From Octopus vulgaris (lineage: Eukaryota), in the NCBI GenBank assembly GCA_951406725.2, contig OX597823.1:85250001-85314000 (forward strand): a stretch of DNA of 64,000 nt, in the 5' to 3' direction. Below, piece by piece: positions 30,001 through 63,000 of the stretch (position 1 is its first letter; each line of letters starts with the position of its first letter). The position numbers are program-made.

Positions 30001-33000
30001 GTCTCAACAGGATTCCTTTATGATATGGTGTAGAGGTGCCTCACCAAAAGACGAAATATCTTTGTGATGAACAACAGGTAAGCCATATTCACATGTAACC
30101 TGAAGCAGCGTAGTTGTATTCTTTTCAATGCTTACTGCGAAGCTGCATGTACAAGGATTGTATTACGAATGCCAAGCCAAACTACAAACATAGACACAAA
30201 CTATTTAGGAAACGATACAAAAACTTGCAACAAAAATGTATATATAAATAATACAATAATATAATATAATATAACATAATATAATATAAGATGAAAACAA
30301 AATGGAGAAACAAAATAATAGCTAAGCTGGTTCATATAGCCGCCTGTCCTGCACAGCAGGTTACCTGTCATGTATTTATGAATCTTTGCATCTCTTTCTC
30401 TCTTTGCTTGTCTCTCTCTATCTCCTCTCTTTCACTCGCTTTCTCTGTCTGTCTCTTTCTTCCTGTCCCCGTCTTTCTCTGCCTTTCTCTCTTTCGTTCT
30501 CTTATTGATAACGAAAGACAACCTCACGTTCTCCTCCATTTTACTTTTCATTTCTGTTTGTTTGTGATACGCTGTTTTAGTTTATTATTTCCCAACTAGC
30601 GTCGTTGAAGATTCATCGGTTTGTTTGTAATAATAATATAGCTTTTCCCTCATCTTTAATTCAAATGCTCAAAGGCGTTCGCTGACTTATTCTTTTTAGA
30701 GTAAAGAATACGAGAGAACAAGAGTAAAAGAACAAATAAATAGACGTTGTCAAAAATTGGGGAGTTATATAGTAAAACGAAAGAAAAAAAAAAGAACACA
30801 AAACGAAAAGTGAATGAACAACAGAGAAAGAGACATGAAAGAGAAGAGAGCTAAATATAAAGGAAATTATATCTTACGCATGGCAGATGGAAGAAGAAGA
30901 CAAAACAAAAACAAACAAAAACACAACAACAACACAAACAAAAATAACAAAAGAAGATTTGAAAATAAGGACCTCGCATTTTCTCCATCGTTCCATATTC
31001 ATTTCCTCTAATGATAACCTGGTTAAATTATTTCTTTTATATGTAAGAGCTCACTTATTCAGAACATTAGATCATTGAAGTTGTTTTCGAAATATATTTA
31101 ATATTCTTCATAATAGCATTCTTAAAACATATGAACAGATAATATTTTCTTTCAAATGTTTGTGTATGCGTATATATATATATTTTTTTTTCGTCTTCTT
31201 TTTAATGTAACATTGCTGTCAACGTTTAGAAAACTAAATAGCTATTCCATTTATAAATTCATTTGCAAATTCATTTATGAAATTATTTAACATTTGATGT
31301 TGGATTATGATATGACCGTTCAAATAGTTTTATAGAAATTAGCCATCTTTTATTTATTCATTGAATGAGCGGTTGGCGGAGTTGATAACATTTTGTCTGG
31401 TACACGAATAGTCCCGGGTTCATATCTTGTCACCAGCAATGCGCTATTTTAGCAGCCGTGTAAATTAATTCATAAATTTGTCCATCTGATTTCAATCAGA
31501 TGTGCAAAATTGCGTTATATATATATATATATATATATATATATATATAGACACACATATATATATATGCATATATATATCTATATATATATATATATAA
31601 TTATACATACATATATGTGTGTGTGTTTGTGCGTGCGGGCGTATGTGTGTGCGTGCGTGCATATACGAATAGGTAAATGTATATATATACACATAGACAT
31701 ATATGTATATATTACTTTACAAGAATGTTGATTGTGTCTTCGAAGTTAGCGTCACCTGACGTTTGCCAGACTGCGTAAACTCCGAAGTTACTGTCACCCT
31801 TCTTCTTGTAAAATTATAATAGATATGTACTCAAAAAAAGCATTAAGTGTGTGTATAAATATGTGTGTATATATATATGTGAATATATATATATATATAT
31901 ATATGTGTGTGTGTGTGTGTGTGTGTGTGTGTGTAGTGGAAGCTTGAACAAGGAGACGAACTCTCGGGATGTTAAAACATTTATATCGTGAATTCTACAT
32001 ATATTTCGATGGATGAACTCCAAAATGTCCGACAGGATAAATTATGGTCAACAATGCATCAATCTCTTCAGGAAGGATATAAATAACATACACATCAAAC
32101 AGACATGTTAACACAAACAGATGATGTGTTTGCTATTTATAGTGTTTCTGATGAGATTGATGCATTACTGACCAAAATTTTTTCCTCTCGGATATTTTTG
32201 GAGTGCATCCGTAGAAAAATATATATAAGAATTCAAGATATAATTTGTATAACAACATCCCGAGAGTTCCTCTCCTTGCTCAATCTCCCTGTTTTTCACT
32301 AAATACGACTTACTATCAAAGCTTATCTGATTTCTTCCACATTTTGCGGGGTCTGTACCGTTCGTGGTGTCCTCAGACATGGTACAGAATTTCTCAGTAC
32401 AGAAGACACTTGGTAGTGCTCAAATGATACAAACTTAGAATCTTAACAGGAGATTATTTGAACGGGGGTAAAGATTGGCTATAAGTGTGATCAAGTTGAG
32501 CAGATATAGAAGCTACCTTCCTCTCTCTCTCTCTCTCTCTCTCTCTCTGTATACACACACACACACACACACACACACATATATATATATATATATATAT
32601 ATTATATAATTATAAATACCAGTGAACAGCAATTGATGATACCGGTATGACTTTGAATCCCTTTCATAATTCAAAGTAATGACTTCTGTTCTTGTTAATT
32701 CTACTAATTGTTTATAACATCTAATTGTTTAAATTTATCGTTACTTATCGTAAAAGAGCCCTTATTTTTTATATCGAATAATCATTTTCGCGATTTTCTT
32801 CTTACTTTCCCTATATGTAGTTTATTCTCTCTTTGAAACATATTCCTATTATATATATATATATATATATATATATATATATATATATATATATATATAC
32901 ATACATACATACATACATACATGCATACATACATACATACATACATACATATATAATACATACATGCATACATACATATATACATACATACATACATACA

Positions 33001-60000: not shown

Positions 60001-63000
60001 GTAAGCACCTGTATATACCATTTAGTGGTGTAGGTGGTAGAGTATATTAATCAAAATACAAACATGATGCCAAGGATTCAGCGGTACATATGTTTCGGGC
60101 CTTTATTAGACGGATTTATAACAATGCATAATGTGTGTCTATGGCCTTCTTCAGCCGCGTACAATTACTACTTCAAGGACATGTGTTACATCGAGTGAAA
60201 GACGAGATGGACGCTTCGTTTTTGTGCTGGTGCTCCACTCTGTCGTACGCGACTGTAAGGATTTGCATTCCCAACGTAAATCTTATAATGTGATACATGT
60301 CCTTGAAGTAGTAATTGTACGCGGCTGAAGAAGGCCATAGACACACATGATGCATTGTTATAAATCCGTCTAATAAAGGCCCAAAACATATGTACCGCTG
60401 AATCCTTGGCATCATGTTTTTATTTTGATTAATATATATATATATATATATATGTGTGTGTGTGTGTGTGTGTGTGTGTGTGTGAGTGTTTGTGTCTATA
60501 TACACATATAATATATATATATATATATATATATATATATATATGTGTGTGTGTGTGTGTGTGTGTGTATGTTTGTGTGTCTGGGTTTGTCAACCCAACA
60601 TCACTTGACAACTGATGGTGGTGTGTTTACTTCCTCATAACTTAGCGATTCGGCAAAAGGGACCGATAAAATAAGTACTAGACTTCCAAAGAATAAGTCC
60701 TGGGTGCGATTTGCTCGACTAAAGGTGGTGCTCCAGCATGACCGCAGTGAAATGGCTGAAACAAGTAAAAGAGAAAAAGAAAAAAGGTAGAATTATTGAC
60801 ATAGAGAGAAATACACATATCAATAATCCAGCATACTTTGTTTTCTTTCTGAATTAAGACTATGTCCGGCAATAACTAATTCATTATATAACTTATGATA
60901 TTCTCTGGAAACAGTAAGGATATATATATATATATCCTTACTGTTTCCAGAGTATATCTAAAGTTATATAATGAAATAGTTATTGTTTTTTTGTTTTGTT
61001 TATCCCAGGTCATTTCTTATCGAACGGCGCTATGATCAAAGCGTTGACTATATTGTATTTAAGATTACATATATAGAATTGCTATCAGAATAAAGTCTCG
61101 AATTTTTGTTGCTGTTTATTTGAGGATCATCAGAACTGAAATACAGTGCTATCATTAAAGGCATTCCAGGTATCCTCATCCTGTCTTTTATGTGAATATA
61201 ATATATCTAAGACTATATCAGCGAATTCTGGTTTTCGCTTCAAAACGATACGGAATTATTCAAGAAAATTTTGGCTGCAATTACGAACAATTTGATCCAA
61301 CCACTTTGTGATTCCCACATTATTGTTATTTACATAGATAATTCTTTTCAGTGGATATTGAACTGTAAGTAATATCGCAAGTAGCTATGAATGTGCGATA
61401 TGGTATCATTGCAAGAAATCAATAGGAAAATTCTTTCGTCGAGATTCGCAGAGCAAGCGAAGGAGACATGATTGGAACGATTTTATTTTAGCGAAACGAA
61501 AAGAACAATAGACTCAACTAGTTGATTCCTGTAGAGTCAGTCGATTTGCTAGAAATAGTAAACAAATCTTCGTCGTTATTACACCTTATGATAATTTTAG
61601 ACAAATGATACATGAATGCGGGCGGGACTGTATGGTAAGAACTTTGCTTCTCAACTACAGGCTTCAGCGTTCAGTCACACTCTGTGGCACCTTGGGAAAG
61701 TGTCTTCATCTATAGCCTCAGGGTGACCAAAGCCTTGTGAGTTGATTTGGTAGACGGAAACAAAGTAATCTGTCCTACACACACACATATATCCATATAT
61801 GCGTGAATGTGTGCCTCTGCTTTTATTAAAGCTGCAAAATTCTTCACAAACTGAAGCTTTAATAAAAACATATTACTCTTCTTCCGGTACTTAACTTACT
61901 TTCCTACCTTGTCTTGCATTTATGTGCTTAATGGTACACGCACACACACACGCACACGCACACACACACACACGCACACGCATACACACACACAGACACA
62001 CACACACGCACACGCACACACACACACACGCACACGGATACACACACACAGACACACACACACACTATTATGTTTATATAAATGTAAAATCTAAGGATCC
62101 AAGTGTAGGAAAACGTTTAGCTTCAAACAAACCATAGGAACTATAAAAAAAAAATAGCTTTCAGAGACAATAGAGGTTTAGTGAGAGGGAAGTTTCTGAG
62201 TTTTTTTCAGTTTCGAAGTATGGTAAGCTGAAAAAAAAAAACTGTTTTATATTTCACGGTAAGCAGCCAGTGTTACCAGGTATGAGAATAAAATACGAGA
62301 GAGCGACCGGAATCTCGGAAGTGGTAAATATCCAAGCGAGGTGTATACCGCAGGTTACTCTTCAGGCTACATCCTGATCGAATCGTCCGTGTGTTGACAT
62401 GTGACTCCTTACCACAATGTAAATTCCATTTAATCAAAACAGCCTTTGGCTCGAAGAGAAGCTTGTTGTAAACACCTCACCTGGATATTTACCCCTTCCG
62501 AGGTTCGGGTCCCTATGAAGCATATAGCCCCGATATTATCTACTCCATACTTACATACATACATACATACATACATACATACATACATACATACATACAT
62601 GCATACATACATACATACATACATGCATACATACACGTACATGCATATATACACACATTTGCTTGTGTGTTTGCCAGTGATATTCGTATCTCTCACTCTG
62701 CGTGATTACTGTTTAACTGAATTCATTGTGTTATCTCATGAATAGGGGAGGCTGCGTAAATCACTCAGACAACTTTTGTTTTGTCTGTGGAAAATTTGCT
62801 CAACGTGACCAGCGGAGGAACATTGCCACCAAATTAAAAATTGCCAAACAGAATATTATTTCGGGTGTAAAGTTGAGGATTAAGACAAGAGGTGCTGCAC
62901 CGTGTGTTACGGAAGGGAATGCCTTTTGTGGTACCAATGGTCATGCGTGATCCGACCGATTATGTCTCTGTTACTTTTGCATGACTAATAGTAGTTTCTC

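What the first reader, a model, noticed from the sequence alone, without database searches (positions are those of the whole stretch)
31938..60436. Three palindromes of different sequence share one dual-hammerhead architecture: a candidate fold-back retrozyme class
Seen: P3 (31938-32289), P1 (51037-51422) and P2 (60043-60436) differ in primary sequence but share a design. Each has 150-185-bp arms, outward-facing type I HHRs with long stem II, a 4-nt stem III loop (atat/atgt), a cleavage triplet ~40-60 nt from the arm's outer end, and a flanking dinucleotide microsatellite. Arm divergence differs (P1 and P2 low, P3 higher), implying repeated formation over time. Inference: three within 29 kb suggests a systematic mechanism, either PLE-type inverted-pLTR formation by template switching or mobilisation of a palindromic ribozyme-bearing RNA. 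Described retrozymes usually carry direct, tandem HHRs. I am not aware of this inverted form being described in cephalopods but cannot verify that.
Basis: partly seen in the sequence, partly recalled or inferred. Interest (0 to 1): 0.9.

Follow-up and report, generated by a model that had tools for sequence, protein, structure and literature searches.

The report
Head-to-head hammerhead-bearing retroelement ends
Three small DNA palindromes are each made of two inverted copies of the ribozyme-carrying tail of a retrotransposon, an arrangement already known for Penelope-like elements, so they are most likely decaying insertion relics rather than a new class of mobile RNA.

Summary
The three palindromes are real. 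Arm identity is 179/185 for P1, 144/149 for P2 and 135/168 for P3. Each arm carries an outward-facing type I hammerhead (HHR) motif. A strict descriptor finds 4 motifs in the window against 0.02 expected in shuffles.

Three points need correcting:
- Only P1 has two intact motifs. P2's right arm has G12>A, and P3's right arm has lost two closing pairs.
- P1 and P3 are homologous, not independent designs (nhmmer E=1.5e-5).
- A solo copy of the P1-type arm lies at 48564-48714.

Each DNA strand holds one sense HHR and one antisense copy. A read-through RNA would fold into a 150-185 bp hairpin, so retrozyme-style excision between two ribozymes on one RNA cannot occur.

The following features fit what is published for Penelope-like elements (PLEs), namely inverted 5'-truncated copies and cutting and priming on both target strands (PMC8557442, PMC11167929):
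- element 3' ends point outward;
- helix III is self-complementary;
- a microsatellite abuts one end of 3 of 3 palindromes;
- there is no target-site duplication.

My verdict is head-to-head truncated insertions of PLE-type HHR-bearing 3' ends, a new member of a known kind. No PLE ORF lies in the window, no Rfam hammerhead model matches, and genome-wide copies could not be examined.

The parts
31884..31934 (.). (TA)n(TG)n microsatellite. It ends 3 nt before P3's left arm.
   Evidence: Read.
31938..32097 (-). P3 left arm, with the sense strand on minus. The HHR core is intact: C3 at 32071, GAAA at 32007, cleavage after 31996. Helix III plus loop reads AUAUAUGU. Helix I has only 3 contiguous bp.
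   Evidence: The P1/S4-only nhmmer model hits it at E=1.5e-5.
32098..32121 (.). P3 unique spacer, 24 nt.
32122..32289 (+). P3 right arm, with the sense strand on plus. The HHR is decayed. CUGAUGA (C3 at 32148) and GAAA are present, but 11.1 is A and the 15.2-16.2 pair is lost. It matches the left arm in 135 of 168 aligned columns.
48564..48714 (-). S4, a solo copy of the P1-type arm with no inverted partner. It is about 70% identical to P1 over 148 nt. The HHR core is intact but helix II has decayed. Its 3' terminus is the same as P1's arms. Similarity ends about 13 nt upstream of C3.
50982..51041 (.). (TA)n microsatellite abutting P1's left arm.
51037..51221 (-). P1 left arm, with the sense strand on minus. 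The type I HHR is intact: C3 at 51169, GAAA at 51108, cleavage after 51097 (GUC). Helix II is 12 bp and helix I is 5+5 bp.
51222..51237 (.). P1 unique spacer, 16 nt.
51238..51422 (+). P1 right arm, with the sense strand on plus. The type I HHR is intact: C3 at 51290, GAAA at 51351, cleavage after 51362 (GUU). It is 179/185 identical to the left arm.
59979..60042 (.). 64 nt of unique sequence between a (TA)n tract (ending 59978) and P2's left arm. It could be an insertion 'tail' or extension, or unrelated DNA.
   Evidence: It shows no similarity to the other flanks.
60043..60191 (-). P2 left arm, with the sense strand on minus. The HHR core is intact: C3 at 60154, GAAA at 60096, cleavage after 60085 (GUA). 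There is an A10.1/C11.1 mismatch. Helix II is GGCC/GGCC plus a distal 5 bp. Helix I is 4 bp.
   Evidence: The HHR shape is the minimum-free-energy fold of the 95-nt segment.
60192..60287 (.). P2 unique spacer, 96 nt, not palindromic.
60288..60436 (+). P2 right arm, with the sense strand on plus. The HHR carries G12>A at 60383. It is 144/149 identical to the left arm.
60432..60485 (.). (TA)n(TG)n microsatellite abutting P2's right arm.

Best explanation
Each palindrome is a head-to-head pair of heavily 5'-truncated copies of the 3'-terminal, hammerhead-bearing segment of a retroelement. That element is either a Penelope-like element (PLE) or a short non-coding element that PLE enzymes mobilise.

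Inferred formation. The element's nuclease cuts an AT-rich or microsatellite target. Reverse transcription then starts at the element's 3' start site in one of two ways. Either it starts on both target strands, or one cDNA snaps back and copies itself. Synthesis stops after about 150-250 nt, and the two inward-growing copies are joined across a short unique spacer. This puts the element's 3' ends on the outside and the sense strands pointing outward.

The hammerhead belongs to the source element. Its short self-complementary helix III fits a ribozyme that acts as a dimer on tandem or multimeric transcripts. In these inverted relics it has no evident role, and the copies decay neutrally.

Shown: the geometry, the motif, the homology, the covariation, the microsatellite adjacency, the lack of TSD and the decay. 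Inferred: the enzyme, the priming mode and any cleavage activity.
For: 1. Geometry. In all 3 palindromes the HHR sense strand runs from the centre outward. That is the layout expected if a cDNA grows inward from a 3'-OH on each target strand.
2. The arm has a defined 3' terminus and variable 5' extent. P1's two arms and the solo copy S4 end at the same place in the alignment. Similarity upstream of C3 extends 60 nt in P1 and about 13 nt in S4.
3. The HHR motif is present well above chance: 4 hits against a mean of 0.02 in 300 shuffles.
4. All 11 core positions are invariant among the 5 P1/S4/P3 sequences, against 35 invariant of 103 positions overall.
5. Helix II keeps pairing through changes on both sides at 5 of 12 pairs. 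88% of cells are paired against 30-46% when partners are slid, and 0 of 500 shuffles reach this.
6. P1 folds into the HHR shape as its minimum-free-energy structure. P2's left arm does the same as a 95-nt segment.
7. The helix III octamer is self-complementary in all 4 descriptor hits and in 0 shuffle hits. Homodimer folds of P1R and P2L form the extended intermolecular helix III and are 8.8 and 11.8 kcal/mol below two monomers. Passages of PMC4209133 describe this for PLE and metazoan HHRs.
8. A microsatellite abuts 3 of 3 palindromes, and no TSD was found.
9. Published PLE traits, read as passages:
- high 5' truncation, and an inverted 5'-truncated copy often adjacent;
- HHRs in pLTRs near the 3' end;
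- (TA)n preferred targets, with TSDs often not discernible (all PMC8557442);
- a purified PLE protein cleaves and extends both target strands, prefers AT-rich DNA and uses the same RT start on both strands (PMC11167929).
10. Decay. P2R has G12>A and P3R has lost closing pairs. Arm identity ranges from 80% to 97%, as expected for unselected copies of different ages.
Against: - No PLE reverse transcriptase or GIY-YIG nuclease ORF lies anywhere in the window. All 210 non-low-complexity ORFs of at least 70 aa were scanned. The link to PLEs therefore rests on architecture, not on a matched autonomous element.
- No Rfam hammerhead model matches, even at E<=10 on each palindrome alone. The helix II domain of 51-59 nt is far longer than the 4-6 bp helix II given for canonical and PLE HHRs in PMC4209133.
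- P2 is not detectably related to the others, either by nhmmer or by a covariance model built from them.
- HHR-like folds are not the minimum-free-energy structure for P3L or S4.
- The two arms are nearly equal in length, with spacers of only 16 and 24 nt in P1 and P3. Independent truncation of two cDNAs from a long template does not predict this. It fits snap-back copying or a short source RNA better.
- The published figure shows an inverted truncated copy next to a full-length element, not two short copies alone.
- The solo copy S4 does not abut a microsatellite.
Confidence: 0.6

Rival explanations
1. The palindrome itself is the mobile unit. On this reading it is a fold-back, non-autonomous, HHR-bearing retroelement, copied as a whole from a hairpin RNA.
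For: 6 of the 7 arm copies in the window sit in inverted pairs and none in tandem. Arms are nearly equal in length in P1 and P3. S4 could be a 5'-truncated copy of such a unit, so it does not exclude this reading.
Against: Each strand has only one sense HHR, so a monomer cannot be released by two cleavages. The whole-unit RNA is predicted to be a near-perfect hairpin of about -170 to -310 kcal/mol. From general knowledge, such a hairpin is a poor RT template. Only one copy of each palindrome lies in the window, so no shared spacer has been shown. Spacers and inner regions are unrelated between elements.
Confidence: 0.12
2. They are MITE-like or foldback DNA transposons whose long terminal inverted repeats happen to contain an HHR-like motif.
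For: The elements are small, AT-rich and almost wholly palindromic. P1 and P2 sit in TA-rich DNA, where a TA target duplication would be invisible.
Against: No TSD was found. P3 has none of 4 nt or more within 10 nt of either end. P1 has only ATATA inside a TA tract. The alignments show no terminal motif shared by all three. A solo arm has the same outer terminus. The HHR core and helix II covariation point to selection at the RNA level in the source.
Confidence: 0.08
3. A single retroelement 3' fragment was inserted first. It was later duplicated in inverted orientation by a DNA-level event, such as replication template switching or hairpin repair at unstable microsatellite DNA.
For: The region is very rich in microsatellites: 134 dinucleotide runs of at least 12 nt, covering 6.3% of the window. 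From general knowledge such DNA is prone to fork stalling. A fourth small palindrome without an HHR lies at 60870-60985.
Against: In P1 the inverted repeat ends where the element ends, as defined by the independent copy S4, and does not extend into unique flanking DNA. The same outcome occurs at three elements of at least two unrelated families. That points to a property of the insertion process.
Confidence: 0.08
4. The hammerhead motifs are fortuitous or long dead, and the palindromes are simply hairpin-forming repeats whose transcripts would feed small-RNA or RNA-editing pathways.
For: No Rfam hammerhead match. Fold z-scores are weak: -1.6 and -1.8 for P1 and positive for P2L and P3L. Long arm-to-arm hairpins are predicted.
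Against: The motif count is far above shuffles. All 11 core positions are invariant among 5 sequences with 71% mean column identity. There are compensatory changes in helix II. The motif sits at the same place and in the same orientation in an unrelated family, P2.
Confidence: 0.05

Closest known systems
Penelope-like element (PLE) insertions with pseudo-LTRs and an adjacent inverted 5'-truncated copy (PMC8557442, passages; PMC4209133, passages)
   Same: An HHR lies near the element's 3' end. The insertions form inverted-repeat structures and are 5'-truncated. They favour microsatellite or (TA)n targets, and TSDs are hard to see. Helix III is short and palindromic, implying action as a dimer.
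   Different: Here there is no ORF, and both copies are only about 150-250 nt and nearly equal in length. Helix II is a 51-59-nt domain with a stem of up to 12 bp, not the 4-6 bp described. No autonomous partner was identified.
Both-strand cleavage and extension by a purified Poseidon PLE protein from Anolis (PMC11167929, passages)
   Same: It supplies a mechanism for two inward-growing cDNAs with the same RT start site at an AT-rich target. This is the geometry seen here. Uncleaved HHR-containing RNA is the main template, as it must have been here, because each arm spans the cleavage site.
   Different: That work was done in vitro on one vertebrate element. It did not show head-to-head products. 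Here the enzyme is inferred only.
Metazoan non-LTR retrozymes: tandem repeats with type I HHRs that give circRNAs (PMC7229834, passages; bioRxiv 10.64898/2026.07.22.740005, abstract and passages)
   Same: Both are type I HHRs with a 2-bp helix III capped by a tetraloop, in short, non-coding, AT-rich units. [quoted passage not shown]
   Different: Retrozymes are direct tandem repeats, so one transcript carries two or more sense HHRs and releases monomers. Here the copies are inverted, the window has 0 tandem pairs, and each strand has only one sense HHR.
Twin-priming inversions of LINE-1 insertions (from my own knowledge; no paper was read for it)
   Same: Priming on both target strands gives an inverted, 5'-truncated structure with both 3' ends of the element facing outward.
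   Different: In L1 twin priming, as I recall it, the two segments are different parts of one RNA and do not duplicate each other. Here the two arms are copies of the same segment.

Membership tests
Hammerhead ribozyme, type I | The conserved core: CUGANGA, GAAA, the A15.1-U16.1 pair and H17. | tested here: met
   The core is complete in 5 of 7 arms: P1L, P1R, P2L, P3L and S4. P2R has G12>A. P3R keeps the core letters but has lost the 10.1-11.1 and 15.2-16.2 pairs. P2 has an A10.1/C11.1 mismatch.
Hammerhead ribozyme, type I | Three helices around the core, with helix I open. | tested here: inconclusive
   The HHR shape is the minimum-free-energy fold for both P1 arms and for P2L as a 95-nt segment. 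It is not for P3L or S4. Helix I has 5+5 bp in P1, 4 bp in P2 and 3 bp in P3L.
Hammerhead ribozyme, type I | Covariation that supports the helices. | tested here: met
   Helix II has 5 of 12 pairs changed on both sides. 88% of cells are paired against 30-46% with slid partners, and 0 of 500 shuffles reach this. Only about 3 independent lineages are compared, so most of this signal comes from the single split between the P1 and P3 lineages.
Hammerhead ribozyme, type I | A match to the curated Rfam hammerhead covariance models. | tested here: not met
   There were 0 matches at gathering score in the window. No hammerhead family appeared at E<=10 in P1, P2 or P3 searched alone. The long helix II insert is the likely cause, but I did not test that.
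Hammerhead ribozyme, type I | Self-cleavage at the predicted site. | not testable with these tools
   This needs in vitro transcription of monomer and dimer constructs.
Penelope-like element (PLE) | An ORF with a PLE-type reverse transcriptase and a GIY-YIG endonuclease. | tested here: not met
   No GIY-YIG hit appeared in any of the 210 ORFs of at least 70 aa. The only RT hit is an RVT_1 fragment at 20526-20879. I did not type it, and it lies 11 kb from the nearest palindrome. Truncated copies need not carry the ORF, but membership cannot be affirmed from the window.
Penelope-like element (PLE) | An HHR in the terminal repeat, near the 3' end. | tested here: met
   The cleavage site lies 42-60 nt from the outer (3') end of each arm.
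Penelope-like element (PLE) | Complex insertions: 5' truncation plus tandem and/or inverted adjacent copies. | tested here: met
   There are three inverted pairs. The upstream extent varies: 60, about 13, about 38 and about 85 nt upstream of C3. No tandem pair is present.
Penelope-like element (PLE) | Insertion bias for AT-rich or microsatellite DNA, with TSDs often not discernible. | tested here: met
   3 of 3 palindromes abut a run of at least 12 nt (joint chance 0.003-0.006). S4 does not. No TSD was found.
Penelope-like element (PLE) | [quoted passage not shown] | tested here: inconclusive
   P2 has 64 nt of unique sequence between a (TA)n tract and its left arm. Nothing comparable was recognisable at P1 or P3, and the flanks are unrelated to one another.
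Penelope-like element (PLE) | Sequence continuity of the arms with the pLTR or 3' end of an autonomous PLE in the same genome. | not testable with these tools
Non-LTR retrozyme (metazoan) | Direct tandem repeats, each with a sense HHR, so that one transcript releases monomers. | tested here: not met
   The window holds 7 arm copies, 6 in inverted pairs and 1 solo. There are 0 tandem pairs. Each strand of a palindrome has one sense HHR.
Non-LTR retrozyme (metazoan) | Circular RNA intermediates. | not testable with these tools
   No transcript data were available.
MITE / foldback DNA transposon | Terminal inverted repeats flanked by a target-site duplication of fixed length. | tested here: not met
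   Inverted repeats are present, but there is no TSD at P3 and only low-complexity ATATA at P1. The apparent repeats at P2 are part of the palindrome or the TA tract.

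The most novel reading that the evidence does not exclude
The inverted pair may be the selected, propagating form rather than an accident of insertion. On this reading it is a PLE-derived 'fold-back' non-autonomous element that is copied as a palindromic unit. Its 150-185-bp hairpin transcript would feed small-RNA or RNA-editing pathways, while the outward-facing hammerheads trim transcripts that leave the centre. 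This would be an inverted counterpart of tandem retrozymes. The evidence does not exclude it: 6 of 7 copies in the window are in inverted pairs, the arms are nearly equal in length, and genome-wide copies could not be examined.
Probability: 0.1. Interest if true: 0.6.

Novelty: new member of a known kind. Interest (0 to 1): 0.3.

Why it matters
These loci would be compact natural examples of the head-to-head products expected if PLE-type enzymes prime on both target strands or snap back. That step is still unproven in vivo, so a genome-wide census of their junctions could help distinguish the two modes.

They also show a hammerhead variant, with a 51-59-nt helix II domain, that the curated Rfam models miss. 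Hammerhead counts in such genomes may therefore be underestimates.

Two full-text searches linking hammerheads or retrozymes to octopus or cephalopods returned only PMC8557442 with all the search terms. Its cephalopod passages that I read concern Naiads, which lack canonical HHRs.

For the host, these are most likely neutral relics.

Tried and rejected
- Rfam at gathering score found nothing. A 30-kb Rfam search at E<=10 was swamped by sub-threshold miRNA-like matches to microsatellites, with 362 matches of which 150 were listed and none was a hammerhead. Narrow searches of each palindrome gave only hairpin-like miRNA and snoRNA noise.
- A covariance model built from P1/S4/P3 and run over the window with filters off recovered only its own 5 training sequences. 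It did not find P2. Its next best hit was E=0.4, in a TA tract.
- nhmmer profiles found no further copies. A profile of all 7 arms hit only those arms at E<1. The leave-out models did not link P2 to the others.
- A TSD search within 10 nt of each end gave nothing informative.
- The outer flanking segments (51423-51562, 32290-32519, 59979-60042) and the inner upstream segments showed no similarity between elements beyond shuffles.
- The Pfam scan for a PLE ORF found none.
- A DUST-masked self-BLAST for other long inverted repeats listed P2 but missed P1 and P3. I therefore do not give a clean count of 'all long palindromes'.
- I considered a microsatellite on the far side of each palindrome, 64, 145 and 231 nt away, as a split target. 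I rejected it as uninformative, because with 134 runs in 64 kb such distances are expected by chance.
- PMC522041 (Penelope RT/EN biochemistry) is not held.
- A search for 'hammerhead ribozyme' + 'head-to-head' + 'retrotransposon' returned 0 papers. A search for 'Penelope-like' + 'inverted' + 'truncated' + 'template switching' returned 4 papers, none on this topic judging from the listing.

Full report
OBSERVATION

| Palindrome | Left arm | Right arm | Identity | Spacer |
|---|---|---|---|---|
| P1 | 51037-51221 | 51238-51422 | 179/185 | 16 nt |
| P2 | 60043-60191 | 60288-60436 | 144/149 | 96 nt |
| P3 | 31938-32097 | 32122-32289 | 135/168 aligned columns | 24 nt |

The identity figures come from aligning the arms in sense orientation.

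I scanned both strands of the whole window with a hammerhead (HHR) descriptor. It required CUGANGA, a helix II of at least 4 bp closed next to GAAA, a 2-bp helix III with a 4-nt loop, U16.1, H17 and a helix I of at least 3 bp. It found exactly four sites: both arms of P1, the left arm of P2 and the left arm of P3. Across 300 dinucleotide-preserving shuffles of the window the mean was 0.02 hits. 6 of 300 shuffles had one hit, none had four, and none had a self-complementary helix III. P1's two arms are copies of each other, so this amounts to three independent occurrences.

ANATOMY

In every arm the sense strand of the motif runs from the palindrome's centre outward. It is on the minus strand in left arms and on the plus strand in right arms. 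The motif is type I: helix I 5' strand, CUGANGA, helix II hairpin, GAAA, helix III hairpin, cleavage site, helix I 3' strand.

State of each arm:
- P1, both arms: complete core, a 12-bp helix II (one G-U), and a helix I of 5+5 bp around a 2x2 internal loop. H17 is C in the left arm and U in the right.
- P2 left arm: complete core with an A10.1/C11.1 mismatch. Helix II is GGCC/GGCC plus a distal 5 bp. Helix I is 4 bp.
- P2 right arm: G12>A at 60383. From general knowledge of the ribozyme (recalled, not read here), G12 is essential for catalysis.
- P3 left arm: complete core, but only 3 contiguous helix I pairs.
- P3 right arm: the 10.1-11.1 and 15.2-16.2 pairs are lost.

The helix II domain spans 51-59 nt. 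The cleavage site is 60, 42 and 58 nt from the outer end of the arm in P1, P2 and P3.

Folding gives mixed support:
- The HHR shape is the minimum-free-energy fold of both P1 arms, at -26.4 kcal/mol with z-scores of only -1.6 and -1.8.
- It is also the minimum-free-energy fold of P2's left arm taken as 95 nt.
- It is not for P3L or for the solo copy S4.
- No Rfam hammerhead family matched at gathering score, or at E<=10 when each palindrome was searched alone.

The HHR call therefore rests on the descriptor, on conservation and on covariation, not on a curated model.

RELATEDNESS OF THE ARMS

That is only partly right.

BLAST found a fourth copy of the P1-type arm at 48571-48714, on the minus strand, about 70% identical and with no inverted partner. 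I call it S4.

Leave-out nhmmer tests:
- A profile of P1+S4 hits P3's left arm at E=1.5e-5.
- A profile of P3 hits P1 at E=0.003.
- Neither profile hits P2.

A covariance model built from the P1, S4 and P3 sequences also fails to find P2 at E<=10. The window therefore holds at least two families: P1/S4/P3, and P2.

Conservation and covariation within P1/S4/P3:
- In the 5-sequence alignment, mean column identity is 71%. All 11 core positions are invariant, against 35 invariant of 103 positions overall.
- In helix II, 5 of 12 pairs differ on both sides between the P1 and P3 lineages yet still pair.
- 88% of cells pair, against 30-46% when partners are slid by 1-3 columns. 0 of 500 shuffles reach the observed pairing or covariation score.
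- The caveat is that only about three independent lineages are compared.

Similarity between families is confined to the HHR domain and the 3' tail. The segments upstream of the HHR, the spacers and the outer flanks are no more alike than shuffled sequence. No other copies exist in the window. The tally is 7 arm copies: 6 in three inverted pairs, 1 solo and 0 in tandem.

WHAT THE INVERTED LAYOUT PERMITS

Each strand of a palindrome carries one sense HHR and one antisense copy. Two cleavages on one RNA, the basis of the retrozyme cycle, are therefore impossible.

A transcript crossing a whole palindrome is predicted to fold into a hairpin. The plus strands of P1, P2 and P3 give -309, -278 and -168 kcal/mol. 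Arm-to-arm pairs account for 184 of 184, 153 of 177 and 137 of 141 pairs. That would bury an HHR fold worth about -26 kcal/mol.

The 8-nt stretch from 15.1 to 16.1 is self-complementary in all four intact motifs. Predicted homodimers of P1R and P2L form the extended intermolecular helix III. They are 8.8 and 11.8 kcal/mol more stable than two monomers. This is the dimer-type design that PMC4209133 describes for metazoan and PLE hammerheads (passages). PMC7229834 calls a 2-bp helix III with a tetraloop typical of invertebrate HHRs (passages). Such a ribozyme makes sense on tandem or multimeric transcripts of a source element, not in these inverted relics.

SURROUNDINGS

Dinucleotide runs of at least 12 nt number 134 and cover 6.3% of the window.
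- Each palindrome has such a run within 5 nt of one end: P3 on the left, P1 on the left and P2 on the right.
- Random placement gives 0.14-0.18 per element, or 0.003-0.006 for all three.
- S4 has none within 150 nt.
- No target-site duplication was found. P3 has none, P1 has only ATATA inside a TA tract, and P2's candidates are part of the palindrome or the TA tract.
- P2 appears to lie inside a (TA)n tract, with 64 nt of unique sequence between the tract and its left arm.

There are 297 stop-to-stop ORFs of at least 70 aa. Of these, 210 have residue entropy above 3.4 bits, and all 210 were scanned against Pfam: 10, 147 and 53. One search also scanned 4 lower-entropy ORFs. The remaining 83 low-entropy ORFs, which are microsatellite translations, were not scanned.

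No GIY-YIG domain was found. The only reverse-transcriptase signals are two decayed zf-RVT fragments (6887-7789 minus, 12766-13083 plus) and one RVT_1 fragment (20526-20879 minus). None is near a palindrome.

MECHANISM

The layout is what target-primed reverse transcription gives when a cDNA grows inward from each target strand. It has both element 3' ends outside, sense strands pointing outward, a short unique joint in the middle, a microsatellite target and no clear TSD. The same layout results if one cDNA folds back and copies itself.

Published PLE biology covers each element of this (all read as passages):
- Insertions are highly 5'-truncated.
- HHRs lie in pLTRs near the 3' end.
- (TA)n is a preferred target.
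- TSDs are often not discernible because of microsatellite bias (all PMC8557442).
[quoted passage not shown] Unprocessed, HHR-uncleaved RNA was its main template (PMC11167929).

I therefore read the three palindromes as head-to-head, heavily truncated insertions of PLE-type HHR-bearing 3' ends, of different ages. Arm identity is 97%, 97% and 80%, and the copies are now decaying.

The enzyme, the priming mode and any ribozyme activity are inferred, not shown.

One detail argues against two independent truncations of a long template. The arms are nearly equal in length, with spacers of 16 and 24 nt in P1 and P3. That fits snap-back copying or a short source RNA better. I cannot tell these apart from one window.

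WHAT REMAINS OPEN

- No eukaryotic genome or repeat library was available. The decisive census of solo, tandem and inverted copies, and of shared against variable spacers, could not be run. No autonomous partner could be sought.
- S4 does not distinguish formation at insertion from a mobile palindromic unit, because a 5'-truncated copy of a palindromic RNA would also be a solo arm.
- No call checked that the host is a cephalopod.
- I did not open the supplementary files of PMC8557442 or PMC4209133, which hold PLE consensus sequences and HHR families. Those of the bioRxiv preprint are closed. They may already contain related elements.

LITERATURE ON NOVELTY

- 'retrozyme' + 'hammerhead' + 'cephalopod': one paper holds all three terms, PMC8557442.
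- 'hammerhead ribozyme' + 'Penelope' + 'octopus': two papers hold all three terms and one is listed, again PMC8557442. The cephalopod passages I read there concern Naiad elements, which lack canonical HHRs.
- 'hammerhead ribozyme' + 'head-to-head' + 'retrotransposon': 0 papers.
- 'Penelope-like' + 'inverted' + 'truncated' + 'template switching': 4 papers, none on this topic judging from the listing.

ORF-less, symmetric head-to-head pairs of HHR-bearing ends, and a 51-59-nt helix II, did not turn up in these searches. They do fall within the published range of PLE insertion structures.

VERDICT

- The 'new fold-back retrozyme class' reading is not supported.
- Novelty: new member of a known kind, with a variant hammerhead.
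- Interest: 0.3.

Noticed in passing
window 48564-48714 (minus strand): A solo, diverged copy of the P1-type arm. It is about 70% identical to P1, has an intact HHR core and a decayed helix II, and has no inverted partner or adjacent microsatellite.
   Followed up: yes
window 60870-60985: A fourth small palindrome, about 430 nt to the right of P2. It is 116 nt with 93% self-complementarity and arms of about 50 nt around a central (AT)8. It has no hammerhead core motif, and its origin is unknown.
   Followed up: partly
window 3888-4078, 22584-22794, 41366-41556, 53564-53735, 60593-60786: An interspersed repeat family of about 110-210 nt, with copies 76-86% identical, seen in a self-BLAST. One copy lies about 160 nt to the right of P2. 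It may be SINE-like. I did not classify it.
   Followed up: no
window 10922-11147, 25904-26129, 26140-26309, 38573-38791, 52950-53099, 58685-58806: A second interspersed repeat family, with matches of about 120-230 nt and copies 78-87% identical. Not classified.
   Followed up: no
window 6887-7789 (-), 12766-13083 (+), 20526-20879 (-), 21888-22136 (-), 26524-27102 (-): Decayed transposon ORF fragments: zf-RVT (E=3.4e-6 and 2.7e-5), RVT_1 (E=3.5e-5), DUF7083 (E=7.3e-5) and a Mos1-type HTH_48 (E=2e-4). All but the first zf-RVT hit (28.1 against a 27.5-bit cut-off) score below the Pfam cut-offs.
   Followed up: partly
window 31000-61500, e.g. 46868-46936, 59565-59637, 43205-43312: Microsatellites give many sub-threshold Rfam matches to miRNA families built on TG/TA repeats, such as mir-297, mir-466 and mir-3149. 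There were 362 matches at E<=10, none at gathering score. These are artefacts of low complexity.
   Followed up: yes
window 31884-31934 and 32520-32604: P3 is bracketed by mirror-image compound microsatellites. (TA)n(TG)n lies on the left. (CT)n(CA)n(TA)n lies 231 nt beyond the right arm. Given the density of runs, this may be chance.
   Followed up: partly
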